The notes beneath the pieces are model-generated. The model worked only from the letters and a program-made list of their open reading frames with translations, was not told the DNA's origin and did no database searches. This document shows positions 43,385 to 51,326 of a stretch of DNA of 64,000 nucleotides, piece after piece. Position 1 is the first letter of the stretch; every line of letters begins with the position of its first letter. The translations under genes and the position numbers were made by a program. Origin of the DNA: an uncultured Desulfobacteraceae bacterium (GTDB lineage: Bacteria; Desulfobacterota; Desulfobacteria; Desulfobacterales; SKZT01); contig CAYZJH010000014.1 of assembly GCA_964478625.1 (NCBI GenBank), positions 7,098 to 71,097 on the forward strand. The letters run 5' to 3'.

Positions 43385-43706
43385 ACGCCAACCTCTTTTT
43401 CCGGAATGACCCGGGTTGATCAAATTGTAATTGTACCTTGGATTATCGATCTGACAAAGACGGTGGATTTTTTGCCGACTTATTCTTTTTAACGGGTTAT
43501 AATCAATGCTATTTATTCTAGTCAACTCGAAATTGGTTTTTTTGGATTTTTTTCGATTCTTGTCGATAGAAATATGGGTGCCAATGATTTATGATAATTA
43601 AGAAAATGAATTCTTGGCTGACTATTTTGATTCAGAAGAACTTGCAGAGTATTTCTAATCAGTAATGGAACGTGTGAGATCGTGCTATTTGGATCAAGGA
43701 GGAGAT

Positions 43707-44303
43707 ATGGGAAAAATCATCTATGGAATTTGCCTTTTCTTTTTACCGTTGATCTTCTGTTCGTGTACCTTGCAACCAATGGCACCGGTTGAATGGCGAT
43801 ATGAGAAGTCAGCTATCACCCTTCATGTAACTGCCGATCCCCTGTTAAATCTTTACAGAGGCAGCGCTCATGCTCTCCATTTATGCATTTACCAACTCAT
43901 GGATCCCGATCCCTTTAATCGCCTGTCCCAAAACTCAGAGGGAATTTCGGAGCTTCTTCAATGTCGGGGGTTCGATTCCAGTGTGGCAAATGCCAGGGTT
44001 TTATCCCGTTCAGGAATCCAGCCCGGCGATTCTTTGACATTCATGCTTGACCGGACTCAAGGAGCTAAATATTTAGGTATTGTGGCGGGATATCAGATTT
44101 TGGAACAAGAGCGAACAGTTCGACTGATAAAAATCCCTGTGACGGTTGAAATCGCAATCGACGGCTTGCTTCAAATTGAAAGGATACAAAAACCTGCCAT
44201 ATTTGGGATTGATCTTCATCTGGGCCCCCAGTATATTCAAAAGACGGTGGTCATGAAATTGAAACAAAAAAATGCAGAAACCGAAAGAGTCATTTTCCAA
44301 TAG
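43707..44303 (+). CDS. tssJ: T6SS lipoprotein TssJ/VasD-like
   Basis: GGAGGAG RBS, lipobox-like IFCSC, ADPLLNLY, LCIYQL, A.YLGIVAGY. Confidence 0.82.
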   Translation: MGKIIYGICLFFLPLIFCSCTLQPMAPVEWRYEKSAITLHVTADPLLNLYRGSAHALHLCIYQLMDPDPFNRLSQNSEGISELLQCRGFDSSVANARVLSRSGIQPGDSLTFMLDRTQGAKYLGIVAGYQILEQERTVRLIKIPVTVEIAIDGLLQIERIQKPAIFGIDLHLGPQYIQKTVVMKLKQKNAETERVIFQ

Positions 44304-44329
44304 AAATGATACCTGAAAAAGAAAAAAAC

Positions 44330-45007
44330 ATGCGATTGACCGACTGTTTTATCGATTTAATTGCCTATGTCTCCTATTTTTTGAAAGAGTTGAATACGAA
44401 TCAACCTGACTTTGATGATGTAAGGTCTGACATCGAAAAACTGATCCTGGGATGTGAAAACCATTTGGGAACAGGCAGATTTTCCCGCGAAGACTATGAT
44501 TTGGCCCGGTTTGCCGTTTTTGCCTGGGTGGATGAAAGTATTTTAAACTCAACCTGGAAAGACCGAACACGATGGTTGGGTCAACAGCTTCAAAATGTTT
44601 ATTATCATGTCTTCGACGCCTCAGAAATTTTTTTCGAAAACTTAAACACACTTAAGCTTCACCAAAAGGACATCAGGGAGGTCTACCTTTTATGTTTAGC
44701 CATGGGCTTTAAAGGCCGTTATTGTAATCAACACGATGAGGTTACTCTTAAACAACTGAAAGCTTTTAATCTAGCAGCCATAACAGGGGCATCCTCGGGG
44801 GTACAACCCTTAAAAACCGAAAAACTTTTTCCCGACGCTTACAACGATGATGATCCCAAAAATCATGCTCCCTTGCATAAATCCGGAATTTTCTCTTCCA
44901 CACTTTTTTGTGTTACGTTTCCAATCCTATGTTGCATAGTTCTTTTCCTCCTATTTCGTTTTATTTTAGTTAATGCCGGAGATAATCTGTTAAGGATGAT
45001 GCCATAA
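44330..45007 (+). CDS. tssL: DotU/TssL family protein (no OmpA domain)
   Basis: MRLTDCF, ARFAVFAWVDE, W....LQ, FFENL, EVYLLCLAMGFKGRY, C-terminal TM (alternative start 44306). Confidence 0.9.
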   Translation: MRLTDCFIDLIAYVSYFLKELNTNQPDFDDVRSDIEKLILGCENHLGTGRFSREDYDLARFAVFAWVDESILNSTWKDRTRWLGQQLQNVYYHVFDASEIFFENLNTLKLHQKDIREVYLLCLAMGFKGRYCNQHDEVTLKQLKAFNLAAITGASSGVQPLKTEKLFPDAYNDDDPKNHAPLHKSGIFSSTLFCVTFPILCCIVLFLLFRFILVNAGDNLLRMMP

Positions 45008-48000
45008 ATGACACAGGTTTCGAGAAAATTATTTAAAGCGGTTTTCATTCCAGCTTCGGCTTTTTTGATTATACTGGTAGGAGTCAGGGTGGCATTGTTG
45101 CACGGATTGCCCTGGTGGATGGTTCTTTTTATCCTGTTCAGCAGTTTGGCCGGAATCATCTTTGTGAAAACAATTTTGCAAAGGTATCAAGAGCAAAACT
45201 TTCTTCAAAAAGTCATGGATCTATATGATTCTTTTCCCGAAACCACCAATGACGGCGAAAATGAAAATACAGTAGAATTTCGTGATCTTTTAACAAAAGT
45301 AATGCAGGAAATCCGAAAATTTCAGCAAAAAAAACCGGGAAATCCTTTATCTCTTCTCCCCTGCTATTTGATCATTGGCGAAAGCGATTCAGGAAAAACA
45401 ACAGCCATAAAAAATGCCGGCCTGACACCTCTTTTTCCGGAACTAAATCTTAATTCCGGCATTCCCCTGACAAAAAATTGCCGCTGGTGGTTTTTTGAAG
45501 AGGCAATTATTCTCGATGCAAAAGGGAAATTTGTCGTTCTTAAAGGCAAAAAACCTTATAATCTCGAGTGGCAGAAGCTCTTTTCACTGTTGACCATCTT
45601 TCGGAAAAAAGATCCGATCAACGGACTTGTGGTAACCGTAGCCGCCGATAGGTTGATCAACCCTCAGATGGAAATTCTCGAAAATGACGGCAGAAAAATT
45701 CGCAGGCAAATTGATGAATTGATAGGGGTTCTGGGCTCTACTTTTCCGATATATCTAATGGTGAGCAAGTGTGACCTCATACAAGGCATGACCCAATTTT
45801 GGAGCAATTTTACCGACCAAAAACTTGAACAGGCCATGGGTGTGCTTAATCAGGATATGACTAGAAATGCCATAACATTTCATGAACAGGCGTTTCAAAA
45901 AATTGCAGATCGACTAAAATATTTGAGACTATTGATTTTTCAACGTTCCAACTCAAAGATCGCCCCGGAACTTCTGCTTTTTCCTGATGAGTTTGAACGG
46001 ATTAACCCTGGATTGGATCGTTTTATTAGAGCCATTTTTCATGATGACTATCTTCAAAACACTCCCATTTTACGTGGCATTTTTTTCAGCAGTGGTCATC
46101 AGGAAGGAACCCCTTATTCCCATTTTATGAATTCCATGGGATTTACCCAAGACAAAGAGACCCTTCCAGGAACAAATAACAACCTTTTCTTAAAAGACTT
46201 TTTCTCAAGAATTCTCCCAAATGACACAGCACTGTCTGCCCCAACCCAAAAGGCAGTCGAATGGAATCGATGGCCCCGAAATTTAGGACTGACCTCATGG
46301 ATAGCGATCACGTTTACAGTATGCGGATTACTCAGCATTTCATTTGCCAAAAATCTGGAAGCCATAAGATATGCAGCCGGTGATTTTACTTCTCCACCTG
46401 TGTTACAGGGAGAAATTTCTTCTGATTTAGCTACCATGGACCATTTTCGTCAGGCTATTCTGAATATTGAACTGCGAAATCATACATGGTGGATTCCTCG
46501 CCTTATGCTTACAGAAAGTTTGACTATAGAAAAAAAAATCAAAGAAAAATATTGTTCAACGTTCAAAAATGTATTTTTGGTATCATTTGACAAACAGATG
46601 CTGGAACTCCTTTCCGGTTTTGATGGGATTACGCAAGATGAAGAAATTGGACAACATGCGGCACATCTGGTCTATCGGATCAATCTGTTAAAAGCCCGAC
46701 TTGAAGATGAAAACCTCGAAGTGCCCGTTAAAAAACTTCAACTTTCTTATAAAACCGATAGGGCTTCAGAAAAACAGCCGTTTATTCCTGAACTTTATGA
46801 AAACTTTTATACCACTTATTCACATTACCTAATTTGGCTGGATGATACCAGTCAGTTAAAAAATGAAATCGATACCCTTCAGAGTTGGCTTAAAAGCCTA
46901 TTGGATTTAAGACCCAATGAAATGCAATGGCTTGTGGCATGGATAAATCAAAACCCCATGATTTCAGATATTTTTCTCCAAGACTTTTGGATAGGACCCC
47001 CCCATAAAACAAGCAACTATCCGACGACCTTCAAAAATTCTGCTGATAAAAAGGAGAAGAAAATTGCAGCAGATACCGGTGCAACCATCCGACGGGCATA
47101 TACTTCCAAAGGAAAAGAAATGATCGAGTCCTTTATTGGGGAAATGGAAAAAGCCCTTCCAAACCCAAATTTGCTTTCAACCCGTAAAGCTGAATTTGAA
47201 CAATGGTACAGGGAATCCTATTTTAATGAATGGCTGGCATTTGGAGAATATTTTTCCAATGGTGTCGGCCTTCTTGATGGAAAGTTGCAATGGCAGAAAA
47301 TGGCCTCAATTATGGATACCGATAACAGTCCATTCTTTGAGCTTCTTGAAACAATGGCTGAAGAGCTAAAGCCCATTTGTACACAACATTGCCAGGATCT
47401 GCCGCCATGGGCAGACCTTGTTTTTAAATTTCATATGATCGGGGAAAATATGGACTCCGAAACAACAACCCGAACATCTGAGCCAACCCAATCCATGATG
47501 ATTGCCGCAGAAGCCTATGAACAATACAAAAACGCACTTCAAGAAATATTGCCGATCGTCACATCCAGCGACCTTGCTTTCCAGATGACAGGGATAACTT
47601 TTGGAGAAGATCCGGTTGGAAACACTTCTCCATTTATCAAGGCTCAAGATGCCGTTCAAAATATGAAAAAAGCCCTGGAAAATTCAGAAACTGAATCGTC
47701 CATGGTCTGGGAATTGATTAAAGGACCCTGGGAGTTTTTATGGGAGTACGCGATACAAGAAACCTCTTGTCATATCGAAGATTTATGGAAAAAATATGTA
47801 TTTGAGGATTTTCAGGACATCTCTGATATTAACCTGGTGGCAGATTTATTGATAGGCCCGAATGGTTTGGCGACAAAATTTGCTGATGGACCGGTAAAGC
47901 CTTTTGTCCTTCACAACCCGAACAAAGGATATTTTTCAAAGAAAACCTTCGAGAAAAAAATCCCCTTTGAAAATACTTTTTTAACCTTTCTGAACCGTGG

Positions 48001-48508
48001 AGACCAGTATCTTCAATACAAAAGATTAGAATCTCGGCAAAAAATCCGATCCAATTATTCGGTTAATATCAAAGGGTTTCCCACTGATGCCAATCCTGAA
48101 GCTAAAATCAAACCTCATGCCACCCATCTCAGGGTGAAATGCGCTAACCGGGTTTTCAGTTTAACCAATTTGAATTATCCCATTCAAAAGACAATCAACT
48201 GGTCTCCGGAAAACTGTGTTGAAGTTGCTTTCACCATTGAGGTGGATGAATTGAGTCTGGTAAAAAAATATCTGGGAAATGATGCATTCCCAAATTTTTT
48301 AAAAGACTTTTCAGCGGGAACCAAGACCTTCTATCCTATGGATTTTCCTCAAAATCTATCAGGCTTGAACCGGCTGGGAATCACCTATATCAGAGTGAAT
48401 TACGAGTTCAGTAATCATGAACCGTTGCTGACCTTTCAGAGAATCAATCAAAAAAGGCCCGTATTGCCGAATTTACCTAAAAATATTACACAATGCTGGG
48501 ACAACTGA
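45008..48508 (+). CDS. tssM: IcmF/TssM family protein
   Basis: N-terminal TMs, Walker A IIGESDSGKTT, WWFFEEAIILD, PINGLVV, FPIYLMVSKCDLIQG, LRGIFFSSG, TM, long periplasmic domain. Confidence 0.9.
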   Translation: MTQVSRKLFKAVFIPASAFLIILVGVRVALLHGLPWWMVLFILFSSLAGIIFVKTILQRYQEQNFLQKVMDLYDSFPETTNDGENENTVEFRDLLTKVMQEIRKFQQKKPGNPLSLLPCYLIIGESDSGKTTAIKNAGLTPLFPELNLNSGIPLTKNCRWWFFEEAIILDAKGKFVVLKGKKPYNLEWQKLFSLLTIFRKKDPINGLVVTVAADRLINPQMEILENDGRKIRRQIDELIGVLGSTFPIYLMVSKCDLIQGMTQFWSNFTDQKLEQAMGVLNQDMTRNAITFHEQAFQKIADRLKYLRLLIFQRSNSKIAPELLLFPDEFERINPGLDRFIRAIFHDDYLQNTPILRGIFFSSGHQEGTPYSHFMNSMGFTQDKETLPGTNNNLFLKDFFSRILPNDTALSAPTQKAVEWNRWPRNLGLTSWIAITFTVCGLLSISFAKNLEAIRYAAGDFTSPPVLQGEISSDLATMDHFRQAILNIELRNHTWWIPRLMLTESLTIEKKIKEKYCSTFKNVFLVSFDKQMLELLSGFDGITQDEEIGQHAAHLVYRINLLKARLEDENLEVPVKKLQLSYKTDRASEKQPFIPELYENFYTTYSHYLIWLDDTSQLKNEIDTLQSWLKSLLDLRPNEMQWLVAWINQNPMISDIFLQDFWIGPPHKTSNYPTTFKNSADKKEKKIAADTGATIRRAYTSKGKEMIESFIGEMEKALPNPNLLSTRKAEFEQWYRESYFNEWLAFGEYFSNGVGLLDGKLQWQKMASIMDTDNSPFFELLETMAEELKPICTQHCQDLPPWADLVFKFHMIGENMDSETTTRTSEPTQSMMIAAEAYEQYKNALQEILPIVTSSDLAFQMTGITFGEDPVGNTSPFIKAQDAVQNMKKALENSETESSMVWELIKGPWEFLWEYAIQETSCHIEDLWKKYVFEDFQDISDINLVADLLIGPNGLATKFADGPVKPFVLHNPNKGYFSKKTFEKKIPFENTFLTFLNRGDQYLQYKRLESRQKIRSNYSVNIKGFPTDANPEAKIKPHATHLRVKCANRVFSLTNLNYPIQKTINWSPENCVEVAFTIEVDELSLVKKYLGNDAFPNFLKDFSAGTKTFYPMDFPQNLSGLNRLGITYIRVNYEFSNHEPLLTFQRINQKRPVLPNLPKNITQCWDN

Positions 48509-48605
48509 CCCCCTGAAATCATTTATCATGAGCCTATTAGAAAAACCCGCAGTTACCCCCCTTTTTTGGGCGAATTAATATACAGATTACCTGGTTAATC
48601 GCAGA

Positions 48606-48660
48606 AACCGACCGGTTCGGTTGTTGACAAAACTGAAAATACCTGATAGAAATTTTCTAT
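48606..48660 (+). promoter_or_regulatory. Candidate promoter with two palindromes upstream of the selenopeptide gene
   Basis: AACCGA-N5-TCGGTT (48606-48622), TTGACA (48624-48629), 17 nt, TAGAAA inside the palindrome ATAGAAA-T-TTTCTAT (48646-48660). Confidence 0.45.
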
Positions 48661-48722
48661 TCTCCAAAATTTTAAAATAGATTTTTTCGATGTCATTAAA
48701 CCGAATATTCCGGGAGGTGATC

Positions 48723-49061
48723 ATGGAAAAGAAAGACCTAAAAAAATTGCTTGCAGGTTTTGGAATCGCCGGCTTGATCAGTATGGGAGGAGTGACTCTT
48801 CCAGGGGTTCATGCAGGTAGCAGCTGAGGAGCCAAACCCAGTGCGGGCGGCACTGAACAACAACAAAAAGCACCAGCCGGAAGTGGCTGAGGCGCCAAAA
48901 AAGAAAGCGCAGTTAGCGCAGAAGAAAAAAAGCAACAGCAGGAGCAACAGCAACTAGATCAGCAAGAGGCTGAGGAAAAGGCCGAAGAAGTCCTGGAAAA
49001 AGAAGGAGAACCTGTTGAAAAACCAGCCGGAAAAAGCGGTTGAGGGGGCAAAAAACAATAA
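48723..49061 (+). CDS. sbtA: Selenocysteine-containing RiPP precursor (selenobacteriocin/SbtA-like), three Sec
   Basis: GGAGGTGA RBS; MEKKDLKKLLAGFGIAGLISMGGVTLPGVHAGSSUGAKPSAGGTEQQQKAPAGSGUGAKKESAVSAEEKKQQQEQQQLDQQEAEEKAEEVLEKEGEPVEKPAGKSGUGGKKQ then TAA; TGA at 48825, 48888 and 49041, all in frame. Confidence 0.88.
48839..48855 (+). other. SECIS-like hairpin for Sec35
   Basis: CAGTGC-GGGCG-GCACTG, 11 nt after the TGA. Confidence 0.72.
48907..48919 (+). other. SECIS-like hairpin for Sec56 (weak)
   Basis: GCGC-AGTTA-GCGC, 16 nt after the TGA. Confidence 0.5.
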
Positions 49062-49078
49062 TCATGCAGGATGCATGA
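49062..49078 (+). other. SECIS-like hairpin for Sec107, located in the 3' UTR
   Basis: TCATGC-AGGAT-GCATGA, 18 nt after the TGA and just past the TAA. Confidence 0.7.
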
Positions 49079-49213
49079 CAAATAATTGAAATACAGGATT
49101 TAGCAGAACCGTTTCTCAATGCAGCTGTTTTTTTTGGGAACTGAATTGAACGGTGGCTCTTTGATTTGTATTGATTTATTAACGCCTCTTTCCGGAAAAA
49201 GATTCTCCAAAAG

Positions 49214-49248
49214 TCAGGAGTGCAAAGCAACTGCTTATGCACTCCTGA
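49214..49248. other. Long intergenic hairpin
   Basis: TCAGGAGTGCA-AAGCA-AC-TGCTT-A-TGCACTCCTGA. Confidence 0.7.
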
Positions 49249-49272
49249 TCCTTGCGCCAATTTAATCAATGA

Positions 49273-50850
49273 ATGGATAAAAAACCATACCCCATATGCT
49301 TCGAACTTTTGCCGCATCTGGAAAATAAATGGCAAAAAGATCGGCCGCTGTCGGACATGCTGCGTGAGAACCCGGAAATGTGCGACCATTACCCTTTTCT
49401 GGCGGACCTGGCAAGAATCGAGGAAGCCGTATACCGACTGCTGAAATCGCCTCCACAGATCCCTGTGCCTCTATTGCGCCGAATGGTCAACCCGGCCCTT
49501 GAATTGATTCCGCTCAACTGGCTGAATCTGCCTGAATTTCTGTCCGACAGGAGCGTTGTCCCGAAACCTGGTAAGAACTATGTTCTTGTTTTGATAAAAC
49601 CGGGGGAAAATCATGTGGAGATCCGCAATGCCATGGCCAGAGATCTTCTGGCACTTAAAATCATAGTCGAAGACATTCACCCACGCAATGCGGCCTCTGA
49701 AGGTGGAGTTTCGGCGGGAGCAATTGATGATCTTCTATACCGTTCCCAACAGCAGGGGTTGATCATGGTTCCACCCTCAAAAATCCGGCGATCTGAAGAC
49801 TTCCCCAAAGGCGAGATCAAGGATCTTGAATTTTTCTCGTCGCCAACCTTTACTCTTCAGTGGCACCTTACCCAGGTTTGCGATTTAAATTGCCGCCATT
49901 GCTACGATCGCAGCGATCGTCAAGAGATGAATTTAAACCAGGCAATCGGAATCCTGGACGATCTTTATGACTTTTGCCGGGAGCATCATGTTTTTGGCCA
50001 AGTGTCTTTTTCCGGCGGTAATCCCTTGCTCTACCCCCACTTTGATCAAATTTACCGTGAAGCTGCTGACCGCGGTTTTATGACTGCTGTTTTAGGCAAT
50101 CCCATGCCCCGCAGCAGAATTGAAAGGATGCTGTCGGTTCAAAAACCTGAATTTTACCAAATCAGCATTGAGGGCTTAAAAGATCACAATGATTATATCC
50201 GTGGTCAGGGACACTTTAACCGGGCCCTTGATTTTCTGAAACTACTGGGTGAGCTGAACGTCTACCGGATGGTGATGCTGACCCTGACTCGCGACAATTT
50301 GAATCAGGTTATTGATCTGGCCGATCAATTGCGCGAACTCACCGATGTGTTCACTTTTAACCGGTTGGCGGGAGTGGGACGCGGCGCTGAACTTTCAGCC
50401 GCACCACCTAAACTATATCCCGAATTTTTGGCCCGTTACCTTGATGCGGCCAAAACAAACCCTTGCATGGGACTTAAAGACAATCTTTTTAACCTGCTTC
50501 GGTGGCAACATGACCCTCGTACCCTGGATGGCGGTTGCGCAGGCTACGGTTGCGGAGCCGCTTTCAATTTCATGGCGTTGCTCCCGGATGGAGAGGTGCA
50601 TGCATGCCGCAAACTCCCGTCGTTTCTCGGCAATATTTATCACCATCGACTCAGCGATATCTACCACAATTCTCTATCCCGCAGATATCGTTCCGGATCA
50701 TCGGTCTGCAAGGACTGCCCGATTCGGCCGGTATGCGGTGCATGTCTTGCCGTAGGATATGGATTTGGCCGTGATATATTCAAAGAGCCGGATCCTTATT
50801 GTTTCCGAAACCGGATGGAAAATCGGTGTGGAAAATCCGCGATTCTTTAA
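49273..50850 (+). CDS. sbtM: Radical SAM/SPASM peptide maturase (SbtM-like) with N-terminal accessory domain
   Basis: LQWHLTQVCDLNCRHC, SGGNP, GCGAA...LPDGEVHACRK, C..C..RPVCGAC...DPYC; N-terminal YPFLADLARIE. Confidence 0.85.
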   Translation: MDKKPYPICFELLPHLENKWQKDRPLSDMLRENPEMCDHYPFLADLARIEEAVYRLLKSPPQIPVPLLRRMVNPALELIPLNWLNLPEFLSDRSVVPKPGKNYVLVLIKPGENHVEIRNAMARDLLALKIIVEDIHPRNAASEGGVSAGAIDDLLYRSQQQGLIMVPPSKIRRSEDFPKGEIKDLEFFSSPTFTLQWHLTQVCDLNCRHCYDRSDRQEMNLNQAIGILDDLYDFCREHHVFGQVSFSGGNPLLYPHFDQIYREAADRGFMTAVLGNPMPRSRIERMLSVQKPEFYQISIEGLKDHNDYIRGQGHFNRALDFLKLLGELNVYRMVMLTLTRDNLNQVIDLADQLRELTDVFTFNRLAGVGRGAELSAAPPKLYPEFLARYLDAAKTNPCMGLKDNLFNLLRWQHDPRTLDGGCAGYGCGAAFNFMALLPDGEVHACRKLPSFLGNIYHHRLSDIYHNSLSRRYRSGSSVCKDCPIRPVCGACLAVGYGFGRDIFKEPDPYCFRNRMENRCGKSAIL

Positions 50851-50885
50851 CCCAGGATCATTGCTTTTCCGATTTCCACCTGCCA

Positions 50886-51326
50886 TTACTTGATTTTCAG
50901 TTGTTGATATGCTTCCTGAATTTCCTTGAATTTTTTTTCGGCCAGCTCTTTGAATTCTTCGCCCATATGGCTGACCTTATCGGGATGATAGGTGTTGACC
51001 AATCGGCGATAGGCTTTTTTAATCTCATCAGCAGAAGCGTTTCTTCCAACTCCCAAAACCGTGTATGGGTCTTTTTGATTTCTATCCGGGTTTGCACCCC
51101 CCTGGTGTCGGCTTCCATATTGTTGCTGATCATAATCATGTTGCTGCTGGTCAAATTGCCGGAATGCTCCTGGTGATTTTGCACGGTTTGAAAAAAAATA
51201 GTACCAGACCAGGGCCAGTACCAGGATATCATCAAGCCATCCTAGGCCGATTATAAAATTGGGGATTAGGTCAAAGGGCCAGATGGTATAAAGGATGGCC
51301 AATATCGTCGCGATTATTTTCAACAT
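50886..51326 (-). CDS. DUF1232-like membrane domain plus DnaJ J-domain protein
   Basis: [11 protein letters not shown]...GWLDD; DPYTVLGV...IKKAYRRL...YHPDK. Confidence 0.9.

What the first reader, a model, noticed from the sequence alone, without database searches (positions are those of the whole stretch)
48825..49078. Each UGA has its own SECIS-like hairpin; the third lies beyond the stop codon
Hairpin loops begin 17, 20 and about 24 nt after the three TGAs, each with G in the first two loop positions, as expected for bacterial SECIS. The third hairpin (TCATGC-AGGAT-GCATGA) is non-coding 3' UTR, so protein constraint cannot explain it; this supports recoding of the last UGA. Partial read-through could yield 34-, 55-, 106- and 112-aa products, making length a selenium-dependent output (inference). 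Units 2 and 3 share ACCAGCCGGAA, suggesting internal duplication.
Basis: partly seen in the sequence, partly recalled or inferred. Interest (0 to 1): 0.68.

Follow-up and report, generated by a model that had tools for sequence, protein, structure and literature searches.

The report
Selenopeptide precursor with three SECIS hairpins
This is the precursor gene (sbtA) of a known selenium-containing peptide natural product, and each of its three UGA "stop" codons is followed by the RNA hairpin that tells bacterial ribosomes to insert selenocysteine, the last one sitting just after the true stop codon; it is a tidy example of a known kind, not a new mechanism.

Summary
An ORF (48723-49061, +) has in-frame TGAs at 48825, 48888 and 49041. 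Perfect hairpins follow, with loops starting 17, 20 and 24 nt after each TGA. The third (49062-49078) begins right after the TAA stop.

The gene is an SbtA-family thio(seleno)oxazole RiPP precursor (TIGR04081, 49 bits). It lies next to its radical-SAM maturase SbtM (TIGR04082, 640 bits).

About 30 other sbtM loci show the same layout. Almost every UGA in a G-S-G-U-G context is followed by a 5-8 bp hairpin of the form NNNGC-AGGUR-GCNNN. When the last UGA is near the C-terminus, that hairpin lies beyond the stop codon.

A covariance model built only from distant relatives ranks hairpin 1 and hairpin 3 as the two best hits in the whole window, on both strands. Hairpin 2 is weak: 4 bp, 12.7 bits. 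Cys-codon homologues lack the hairpin, and one relative that lost UGA2 has lost hairpin 2.

So the SECIS reading is supported. The family, its multiple Sec residues, and bacterial SECIS elements beyond a stop codon are all already described. Selenium-dependent product length and recent internal duplication remain untested inferences. This is a new member of a known kind, of modest interest.

The parts
48712..48719 (+). Shine-Dalgarno GGGAGGTG, 3 nt before the start codon
   Evidence: sequence
48723..49061 (+). sbtA: 112-codon precursor ORF with three in-frame UGA (Sec) codons and a TAA stop. Product: MEKKDLKKLLAGFGIAGLISMGGVTLPGVHAGSS-U-GAKPSAGGTEQQQKAPAGSG-U-GAKKESAVSAEEKK...EKPAGKSG-U-GGKKQ
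   Evidence: Residues 1-27 match TIGR04081 (SbtA) at 49.2 bits against a cut-off of 30.5.
48825..48827 (+). UGA1 (codon 35), context G-S-S-U-G
   Evidence: Aligned UGA in L001-L004.
48839..48855 (+). SECIS 1: CAGUGC-GGGCG-GCACUG. In-ORF, encodes S-A-G-G-T. The loop starts at nt 21 counting the U of UGA as 1.
   Evidence: -10.1 kcal/mol. 23.3 bits, E 0.003, best hit in the window with the leave-clade-out model R2.
48888..48890 (+). UGA2 (codon 56), context G-S-G-U-G
48907..48919 (+). SECIS 2 (weak): GCGC-AGUUA-GCGC. In-ORF, encodes S-A-V-S-A. The loop starts at nt 24.
   Evidence: -6.5 kcal/mol. 12.7 bits, rank 6. The orthologous hairpin is 5-6 bp in L001, L003 and L004, with two compensatory pairs between L001 and L003.
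49041..49043 (+). UGA3 (codon 107), context K-S-G-U-G-G
   Evidence: The Cys homologue L036 ends ...SSCGAKK.
49059..49061 (+). TAA stop of sbtA
49062..49078 (+). SECIS 3: UCAUGC-AGGAU-GCAUGA, entirely in the 3' UTR. The loop starts at nt 28.
   Evidence: -7.4 kcal/mol, z -2.4. 19.2 bits, E 0.03, second-best hit in the window. An island of identity in a diverging UTR across L001-L004.
49128..49135 (+). T8 run. Probable remnant of the sbtA-sbtM terminator or attenuator that relatives carry as a separate 16-bp hairpin plus U-tract.
   Evidence: inference
49273..50850 (+). sbtM: radical SAM/SPASM thio(seleno)oxazole maturase, with a CxxxCxxC motif
   Evidence: TIGR04082 640 bits against a cut-off of 350. 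Pfam Radical_SAM and SPASM.
48872..48882 (+). ACCAGCCGGAA, copy 1 (encodes P-A-G before UGA2)
49022..49032 (+). ACCAGCCGGAA, copy 2 (encodes P-A-G before UGA3)

Best explanation
The region is the mRNA of sbtA. SbtA is the ribosomal precursor of a thio(seleno)oxazole RiPP, which the adjacent radical-SAM enzyme SbtM matures. Each of its three UGA codons is a selenocysteine codon.

Each UGA is served by its own minimal bacterial SECIS. This is a short hairpin 17-24 nt downstream with an exposed G at loop position 2. The hairpin would recruit SelB.GTP.Sec-tRNA(Sec) to the ribosome paused at that UGA (inferred from the E. coli fdhF paradigm).

The first two hairpins are embedded in the coding sequence and dictate the residues there: S-A-G-G-T and S-A-V-S-A. 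The third Sec lies only five codons from the end, so its hairpin sits immediately after the TAA stop, in untranslated RNA.

Shown here: the anatomy, the family membership, family-wide conservation with covariation of the hairpins, and their absence at Cys codons.
Inferred: SelB binding, actual Sec insertion, and the relative efficiency of the three sites (probably H1 >= H3 > H2).
For: - Family: SbtA leader 49.2 bits, SbtM 640 bits.
- About 30 sbtM loci carry an upstream SbtA-like ORF with 1-4 UGAs in G-S-G-U-[GS] contexts.
- 58 post-UGA sites carry a 4-8 bp hairpin (5 bp or more in all but three) with loop [A/C]GG[U/G]N, 20-36 nt from the U of the UGA.
- In the 50-sequence alignment, loop position 2 is an invariant G and the two loop-proximal pairs are at least 90% G-C/C-G. 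The stem is 86% paired, with 74 double-change cells against 17.8 in shuffles.
- Model R2 was built without the window or its clade. It ranks H1 (23.3 bits) and H3 (19.2 bits) first and second in 128 kb.
- In the held-out loci L001-L004, all 11 post-UGA hairpins are the top hits. Nothing else exceeds 12.4 bits.
- The Cys-only precursors L005, L040 and L036 have no such hairpin in sbtA. Neither do the Cys codons of L028 and L024.
- L002 replaced UGA2 by CCA, and its hairpin 2 has decayed to 2 bp.
- Compensatory changes keep pairing while changing amino acids: L003 H2 has S>D with A>V, and L003 H1 has A>T.
- All 41 in-ORF copies sit in one codon phase. Of the 17 beyond-stop copies, 16 are in other phases.
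- H3 is a fully conserved island in a diverging UTR. It is distinct from the terminator-like hairpin of relatives.
- Relatives' hairpin 1 (GGUGCAGGUGGCACC) shares GCAGGU in the same register (nt 19-24) with the E. coli fdhF SECIS. That sequence was confirmed in 5,419 genomes.
- Rules (i)-(iii) of the published bSECIS model are met by all three hairpins (PMC13188914).
Against: - H2 has only 4 bp (-6.5 kcal/mol). It ranks sixth in the window (12.7 bits, E 1.3) and misses the -7.5 kcal/mol rule of the bSECIS model. H3 is borderline at -7.4.
- The H1 loop is GGGCG, whereas relatives have AGGUR. Two synonymous changes removed the U that is a SelB contact in E. coli (established knowledge).
- Local shuffles do not single out H1 or H2.
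- The hairpin alignment was assembled with a hairpin finder, so its pairing statistics are partly circular.
- The E. coli fdhF SECIS scores only 3.9 bits with R2.
- No selA, selB, selD or tRNA-Sec is visible in the window.
- There are no protein or selenium data for this organism.
Confidence: 0.85

Rival explanations
1. H3 is a 3'-end hairpin of the sbtA transcript, acting as a terminator, attenuator or stabiliser that sets the precursor:maturase ratio. On this view UGA3 is simply the real stop codon.
For: H3 lies directly after the ORF, between the precursor and maturase genes. RiPP operons often carry such hairpins (established knowledge). A T8 run follows 49 nt later. The palindrome read on the minus strand meets the terminator pattern.
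Against: - No U-tract follows H3 on the + strand, and the scan reports no + strand terminator.
- Relatives have a separate 16-bp G+C-rich hairpin plus U-tract about 28 nt further downstream, which fits that role.
- H3 is found by a model trained on post-UGA hairpins of distant relatives, most of them inside ORFs.
- UGA3 sits in the same K-S-G-U-G-G motif as the internal Sec sites.
- A Cys-type homologue ends ...SSCGAKK.
Confidence: 0.07
2. The in-ORF hairpins H1 and H2 are by-products of a conserved peptide motif (G-A-G-G-T, S-A-V-S-A) selected at the protein level. They are not RNA signals.
For: H1 and H2 are not significant against local shuffles. All 41 in-ORF copies are in one codon phase and encode the same small-residue motif.
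Against: - The same hairpin recurs in untranslated RNA after terminal UGAs, in other phases.
- Pairing is kept by changes that alter the amino acids.
- The motif and the hairpin are absent after Cys codons.
- The hairpin decays where the UGA was lost.
Confidence: 0.05
3. The TGAs are true stops or errors. The gene would then be a pseudogene or a 34-aa ORF, and the downstream frame would be fortuitous.
For: Standard gene calling stops at 48827.
Against: UGAs are conserved in the same motif in about 30 loci across Thermodesulfobacteriota and other phyla. The sequence is identical in independent DNA and RNA data sets. The family is curated as a selenoprotein with an SGUG motif (PMC13188914).
Confidence: 0.02

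Closest known systems
SbtA/SbtM thio(seleno)oxazole RiPP system (Geobacter/Desulfobacteria; Haft & Basu 2011; Lewis et al. 2021; NCBIfam TIGR04081/TIGR04082; listed as 'selenobacteriocin', motif SGUG, in PMC13188914)
   Same: The leader matches TIGR04081. SSUG/SGUG motifs are present. The SbtM maturase is adjacent. A SECIS lies immediately downstream of the UGA, and more than one Sec is present, both as summarised in PMC9204691.
   Different: This locus has three Sec codons, where the review table lists two. Three is common in my survey. The nearest SbtM among GTDB species representatives is 70% identical. Flanking genes are not shared with relatives.
E. coli fdhF minimal SECIS (17-nt upper stem-loop, GGUUGCAGGUCUGCACC; Liu et al. 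1998, cited in PMC4607533)
   Same: It is a short hairpin a fixed distance after the UGA. Relatives' hairpin 1 shares GCAGGU at nt 19-24 from the UGA and the GCACC 3' arm. The window's H1 has the same register and stem.
   Different: There is no bulged U, and the loop is 5 nt rather than 6. The window's loops are GGGCG, AGUUA and AGGAU, so only H2 has an adjacent G-U. The family model gives fdhF only 3.9 bits.
Bacterial selenoproteins with C-terminal Sec and a SECIS beyond the stop codon: DUF466/KCU-star (Cravedi et al. 2015, PMC4607533) and SaoC (Haft & Gwadz 2022, bioRxiv 10.1101/2022.07.06.499078)
   Same: The SECIS hairpin lies wholly in untranslated RNA just after the stop codon. SaoC has a 7-bp stem with a GGU loop, which is very like H3.
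   Different: In those families Sec is the last residue and the only Sec. Here five codons separate Sec107 from the stop, and two further SECIS elements lie inside the same ORF.
Vertebrate selenoprotein P (multi-UGA mRNA; PMC5727441)
   Same: Several UGAs in one ORF, so truncated products are possible when selenium or decoding is limiting.
   Different: The eukaryotic SECIS elements are two distal 3'-UTR structures that serve all UGAs through SBP2 and eEFSec. Here each UGA has its own adjacent hairpin, which is the bacterial SelB logic.

Membership tests
SbtA family RiPP precursor (TIGR04081) | N-terminal leader matches the family HMM above its curated cut-off | tested here: met
   49.2 bits against a cut-off of 30.5; residues 1-27 align to profile positions 1-27
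SbtA family RiPP precursor (TIGR04081) | Sec (or Cys) embedded in a G-[SG]-U-G motif | tested here: met
   GSSUG, GSGUG and KSGUGG. The same motif is present in about 30 homologues.
SbtA family RiPP precursor (TIGR04081) | Encoded next to an SbtM radical SAM/SPASM maturase (TIGR04082) | tested here: met
   sbtM starts 212 nt downstream; 640 bits against a cut-off of 350
SbtA family RiPP precursor (TIGR04081) | Sec is incorporated and converted to a selenooxazole | not testable with these tools
   Needs peptide mass spectrometry or 75Se labelling
Bacterial SECIS (bSECIS consensus model, as given in PMC13188914) | Apical loop of 3-9 nt on an upper stem of 4-16 bp | tested here: met
   H1 6 bp with a 5-nt loop; H2 4 bp with a 5-nt loop; H3 6-7 bp with a 5- or 3-nt loop
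Bacterial SECIS (bSECIS consensus model, as given in PMC13188914) | At least one G in the first two loop positions | tested here: met
   Loops are GGGCG, AGUUA and AGGAU. G at loop position 2 is invariant in 50 family hairpins.
Bacterial SECIS (bSECIS consensus model, as given in PMC13188914) | 16-37 nt between the UGA and the apical loop | tested here: met
   17, 20 and 24 nt
Bacterial SECIS (bSECIS consensus model, as given in PMC13188914) | Minimum free energy of -7.5 kcal/mol or lower | tested here: inconclusive
   H1 is -10.1 and meets the rule. H3 is -7.4, borderline. H2 is -6.5 for the hairpin and reaches -7.7 only with extra long-range pairs. bSECISearch itself was not available.
Bacterial SECIS (bSECIS consensus model, as given in PMC13188914) | Host genome has the Sec-decoding trait (selA, selB, selC, selD) | not testable with these tools
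   There is no tRNA in the window and no sel gene among the neighbours scanned. The rest of the genome was not available.
Bacterial SECIS (bSECIS consensus model, as given in PMC13188914) | Binds SelB and promotes UGA read-through | not testable with these tools
   Needs an experiment
E. coli fdhF-type SECIS | Bulged U in the upper stem and an exposed G-U dinucleotide at nt 23-24 of the loop | tested here: not met
   No bulge in any of the three. H1 has G23-C24, although relatives have G23-U24. fdhF scores 3.9 bits with the family model.

The most novel reading that the evidence does not exclude
The three SECIS elements are deliberately unequal, with H1 strong and canonical in spacing, H2 weak, and H3 in the UTR with longer spacing. 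Selenium supply or SelB occupancy would then set how many Sec residues, and so how many selenooxazoles and which product length, each SbtA molecule carries. The precursor would act as a graded selenium-dependent output. In addition, the core-peptide 'linker' residues G-A-G-G-T and S-A-V-S-A would exist only because they are the translation of the SECIS hairpin, meaning that an RNA signal dictates RiPP core sequence.
Probability: 0.15. Interest if true: 0.55.

Novelty: new member of a known kind. Interest (0 to 1): 0.3.

Why it matters
Standard gene callers truncate this gene to 34 codons, which loses all three Sec residues of the natural-product core. Recognising the three SECIS elements gives the correct 112-residue precursor for a selenium-containing RiPP in an uncultured Desulfobacterales-type genome.

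The family-wide survey also gives a compact and specific SECIS signature for SbtA genes: NNNGC-AGGUR-GCNNN, with an invariant loop G. It could be used to annotate terminal Sec codons whose SECIS lies beyond the stop.

The survey further shows a clean case of RNA structure and peptide sequence sharing the same bases. None of this changes current understanding of bacterial Sec decoding.

Tried and rejected
- **Rfam scan of 47000-51000.** Nothing reached a gathering score. The hit overlapping H3 (Pseudomonas sRNA P31, 24 bits against 40) and a twister-P3 hit at 48287-48380 (24 against 39.9) are sub-threshold and treated as chance.
- **Single-sequence folding against shuffles.** Not discriminating for H1 or H2. 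I replaced it with a genome-background test and comparative tests.
- **Validating the family model on E. coli fdhF.** This failed at 3.9 bits. The cause is the bulged U and the 6-nt loop, so the resemblance to fdhF rests on direct sequence comparison only.
- **Other SECIS-like hits of the model in the window** (51507, 60510, 19744, 5826 and others). None has a TGA on the coding strand at the right distance, and a read-through ORF scan found no other convincing selenoprotein gene.
- **Flanking genes.** The TssJ/L/M-like genes upstream and the DnaJ-domain protein downstream are not conserved next to sbtAM in relatives. They were dropped as parts of the system.
- **Literature.** Haft & Basu 2011 and Lewis et al. 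2021 are not held in the library. Their content is cited second-hand via PMC9204691 and PMC13188914. One literature search was wasted on the cyanobacterial bicarbonate transporter, which is also called SbtA.
- **Metatranscriptome contigs.** They cover the locus, but only as long flat-depth contigs, so they give no information on transcript ends.

Full report
**What is in the sequence**

The + strand carries a strong Shine-Dalgarno (GGGAGGTG, 48712-48719) followed by ATG 48723. The frame runs 112 codons to TAA 49059-49061 if three in-frame TGAs are read through. The TGAs are at 48825-27, 48888-90 and 49041-43, which are codons 35, 56 and 107. Their contexts are G-S-S-U-G-A-K, G-S-G-U-G-A-K and K-S-G-U-G-G-K. 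Ordinary ORF calling stops at the first TGA and gives a 34-45 aa ORF.

- H1: CAGUGC-GGGCG-GCACUG, 48839-48855, -10.1 kcal/mol.
- H2: GCGC-AGUUA-GCGC, 48907-48919, -6.5 kcal/mol.
- H3: UCAUGC-AGGAU-GCAUGA, 49062-49078, -7.4 kcal/mol.

Their loops begin 17, 20 and 24 nt after the respective TGA. H3 starts at the first base after the TAA stop.

**Is it more than chance?**

On the single sequence the evidence is mixed. Dinucleotide shuffles of the local 41-51 nt do not single out H1 or H2 (z -0.4 to -1.1). H3 is moderately unusual (z -2.4).

A positional background test is more telling. I examined the 2,722 other TGA triplets in the window, on both strands. I asked how many have a perfect hairpin that obeys the published loop and spacing rules and is at least as stable. 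The fractions are 1.0% for H1, 5.6% for H2 and 2.2% for H3.

The TGAs are not assembly artefacts. An activated-sludge DNA run and a separate metatranscriptome run contain identical sequence.

**What the gene is**

Residues 1-27 match NCBIfam TIGR04081, 'SbtA family thio(seleno)oxazole RiPP natural product precursor', at 49.2 bits against a cut-off of 30.5. The next gene (49273-50850) matches TIGR04082, 'thio(seleno)oxazole modification radical SAM maturase SbtM', at 640 bits against a cut-off of 350. It also has Pfam Radical_SAM and SPASM domains.

This system was predicted by Haft & Basu (2011) and characterised by Lewis et al. (2021). According to the perspective PMC9204691:
- the precursor carries a stop codon recoded as Sec, followed immediately by a SECIS;
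- it is longer than first thought, with at least two Sec residues in a conserved GGUG-type motif;
- it is confined to Geobacter and Desulfobacteria.

A 2026 review lists the family (TIGR04081, 'selenobacteriocin', motif SGUG, 2 Sec) among known selenoproteins (PMC13188914).

**Comparative test of the hairpins**

I fetched 42 sbtM loci from species-representative genomes. The closest are 62-70% identical. About 30 of them have an SbtA-like ORF just upstream of sbtM, with 1-4 in-frame UGAs in G-S-G-U-[GS] contexts.

Almost every such UGA is followed by a perfect hairpin of 4-8 bp, 5 bp or more in all but three sites. Its form is NNNGC-[A/C]GG[U/G]N-GCNNN, for example GGUGCAGGUGGCACC. The loop starts 20-36 nt from the U of the UGA.

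In a gap-free alignment of 50 such hairpins:
- loop position 2 is an invariant G;
- the two loop-proximal pairs are at least 90% G-C/C-G.

The stem is 86% paired, with 74 double-change cells against 17.8 +/- 4.3 in column shuffles. Pairing collapses when the 3' arm is slid by 1-3 columns. There is a caveat. I collected these hairpins with a hairpin finder, so the pairing figures are partly circular. The conserved loop and closing pairs were not selected for.

**A non-circular test**

I built covariance model R2 from 38 hairpins, none from the window or its clade L001-L004.
- Scanning the whole window with filters off, the two best hits on either strand are H1 (23.3 bits, E 0.003) and H3 (19.2 bits, E 0.03). 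H2 is sixth (12.7 bits, E 1.3). The best unrelated hit has 14.6 bits.
- In the held-out loci L001-L004, all 11 post-UGA hairpins are the top hits (15.5-30 bits). Nothing else in those loci exceeds 12.4 bits.

**Negative controls**

- The Cys-only precursors L005, L040 and L036 give no hit in sbtA. The Cys codons of L028 and L024 have no such hairpin either.
- L002 has CCA in place of UGA2, and its hairpin 2 has decayed to two pairs.
- Between L001 and L003, two pairs of hairpin 2 change in a compensatory way while altering the encoded residues (Ser>Asp with Ala>Val). Hairpin 1 of L003 keeps pairing through a G-C to A-U switch (Ala>Thr).

**The hairpin beyond the stop codon**

In 17 loci the last UGA lies 1-6 codons from the stop. 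The same hairpin type then follows in untranslated RNA, for example UAAAAAUAGUGCAGGUGGCACUAU in L038.

All 41 in-ORF copies have the loop starting at nt 21, 24, 27, 33 or 36. This is a single codon phase, so that GGU-GCA-GGU-GGC-ACC reads Gly-Ala-Gly-Gly-Thr. By contrast, 16 of the 17 beyond-stop copies are in other phases. Many of these sites are phylogenetically related, so the counts are not independent events.

Within the window's clade, H3 is an island of identity in a UTR that otherwise diverges. It shows one loop substitution, in L002. Its distance from the UGA differs by 3 nt between the window and its relatives.

Relatives carry a separate 16-bp G+C-rich hairpin with a U-tract about 28 nt further downstream, which looks like the sbtA-sbtM terminator or attenuator. 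The window has lost that stem but keeps a T8 run at 49128-49135. No + strand terminator pattern is found at H3. A Cys-type homologue ends ...SSCGAKK, which parallels ...KSGUGGKKQ. Together these points argue that UGA3 is decoded and that H3 is its SECIS.

**Comparison with known SECIS elements**

The published bSECIS model (PMC13188914) has four rules:
- a 3-9 nt loop on a 4-16 bp stem;
- G in the first two loop positions;
- 16-37 nt of spacing;
- MFE of -7.5 kcal/mol or lower.

The first three are met by all three hairpins. The energy rule is met by H1, is borderline for H3, and is missed by H2 as a bare hairpin.

I confirmed the E. coli fdhF SECIS sequence that I recalled: it gives a 100% match in fdhF of 5,419 genomes. 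Relatives' hairpin 1 shares GCAGGU at nt 19-24 from the UGA with it. However, the family model gives fdhF only 3.9 bits, because of its bulged U and 6-nt loop. This is therefore a resemblance, not membership.

In this window the H1 loop is GGGCG, where relatives have AGGUR. Two synonymous changes account for the difference (GCA>GCG and GGT>GGC). H2 has lost an A-U pair through a synonymous GCT>GCA change. The window's SECIS 1 and SECIS 2 are thus somewhat degenerate versions of the family consensus.

Bacterial SECIS elements wholly beyond the stop codon are documented for two families. One is DUF466/KCU-star (PMC4607533). The other is SaoC, which has a 7-bp stem with a GGU loop (bioRxiv 10.1101/2022.07.06.499078).

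Product lengths of 34, 55, 106 and 112 aa are arithmetically right. That they form a selenium-dependent output is inference from the general competition between Sec insertion and release-factor termination. Nothing here tests it.

The 11-mer ACCAGCCGGAA is real (2 copies against 0.05 expected). It encodes the P-A-G of the pre-Sec motif. The units differ greatly in length (21 against 51 codons). The closest relatives do not share this 11-mer between units 2 and 3. It therefore says little about a recent duplication, and the repeat architecture is old and family-wide.

**Context**

- Upstream are TssJ-like, TssL/DotU and TssM/IcmF-like genes (43665-48508).
- Downstream are a DnaJ-domain membrane protein, an unassigned ORF, an ADP-forming acyl-CoA ligase and mutY.
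- None of the flanks tested is conserved beside sbtAM in relatives, so sbtA-sbtM is a self-contained two-gene cassette.
- No tRNA and no sel gene lies in the window.

**Verdict**

Support is strongest for H1 and H3 and weaker for H2. The system, its multiple Sec codons, the adjacent-hairpin mechanism and SECIS elements past a stop codon are all known. This is a new member of a known kind.

Noticed in passing
L001-L042 sbtA genes; window 48839-48855: In-ORF SECIS copies always lie in one codon phase and are translated as G-A-G-G-T/S. This motif is absent after Cys codons and after terminal Sec codons, so this part of the core peptide looks like a passenger of the RNA signal.
   Followed up: partly
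L002:862-905: The relative L002 has CCA (Pro) where the others have UGA2. Its hairpin 2 has decayed to about 2 bp. This is a natural loss-of-UGA and loss-of-SECIS pair.
   Followed up: yes
L025:2631-2680; L009:2652-2700; L017:2758-2800; L007:2740-2775; L016:2762-2790; L014:2700-2735: Some precursors have two UGAs only 6-15 nt apart (SGUGNSGU, SGUSGU, or SGUS followed by UGA) with a single hairpin downstream of both. Either one SECIS serves two UGAs or the second UGA is the stop. This is unresolved.
   Followed up: no
L001:2845-2870, L004:2845-2870, L002:1014-1040: In the closest relatives the sbtA stop codon is itself UGA and directly abuts the SECIS-3 hairpin. The window uses TAA and has one extra codon, which shifts the spacing from 25 to 28.
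   Followed up: partly
L001:2893-2935, L003:2906-2940; window 49100-49135: Relatives carry a strong 16-bp G+C-rich hairpin plus U-tract between sbtA and sbtM, a likely attenuator that sets the precursor:maturase ratio. The window has lost the stem but keeps a T8 run.
   Followed up: partly
window 48845-48849: The H1 loop in this window is GGGCG, where relatives have AGGUG or AGGUA. The cause is two synonymous substitutions. The U that corresponds to the SelB-contacting U24 of E. coli fdhF is lost, and the consequence is unknown.
   Followed up: partly
window 43665-48508: A TssJ-like, TssL/DotU and TssM/IcmF-like gene trio lies directly upstream of sbtA. The TssM-like protein scores 252 bits, below the TIGR03348 cut-off of 388. 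This arrangement is not conserved next to sbtAM in relatives.
   Followed up: partly
L005, L040, L036 (sbtA-like ORFs upstream of sbtM): All-Cys versions of the precursor exist (repeats of G-K/S-S-S-C-G/S), including one in a Victivallales MAG. They have no SECIS-like hairpins and make useful natural controls.
   Followed up: partly
L007, L008, L012, L016, L017, L019, L027, L038 leaders: Many SbtA leaders end in a lipobox-like L-x-G-C just before the first Sec (for example LTGCASAU). The window's leader has no Cys there (...LPGVHAGSSU).
   Followed up: no
window 48287-48380 (-): A sub-threshold Rfam match to the twister-P3 ribozyme (24.1 bits against a gathering score of 39.9) lies inside the 3' end of the TssM-like gene, on the opposite strand. 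It is probably chance.
   Followed up: no
window 48647-48740: Metatranscriptome contigs break exactly over the sbtA promoter and 5' region. One contig ends at 48646 and the next starts at 48741. This may reflect low RNA coverage of the intergenic region.
   Followed up: no
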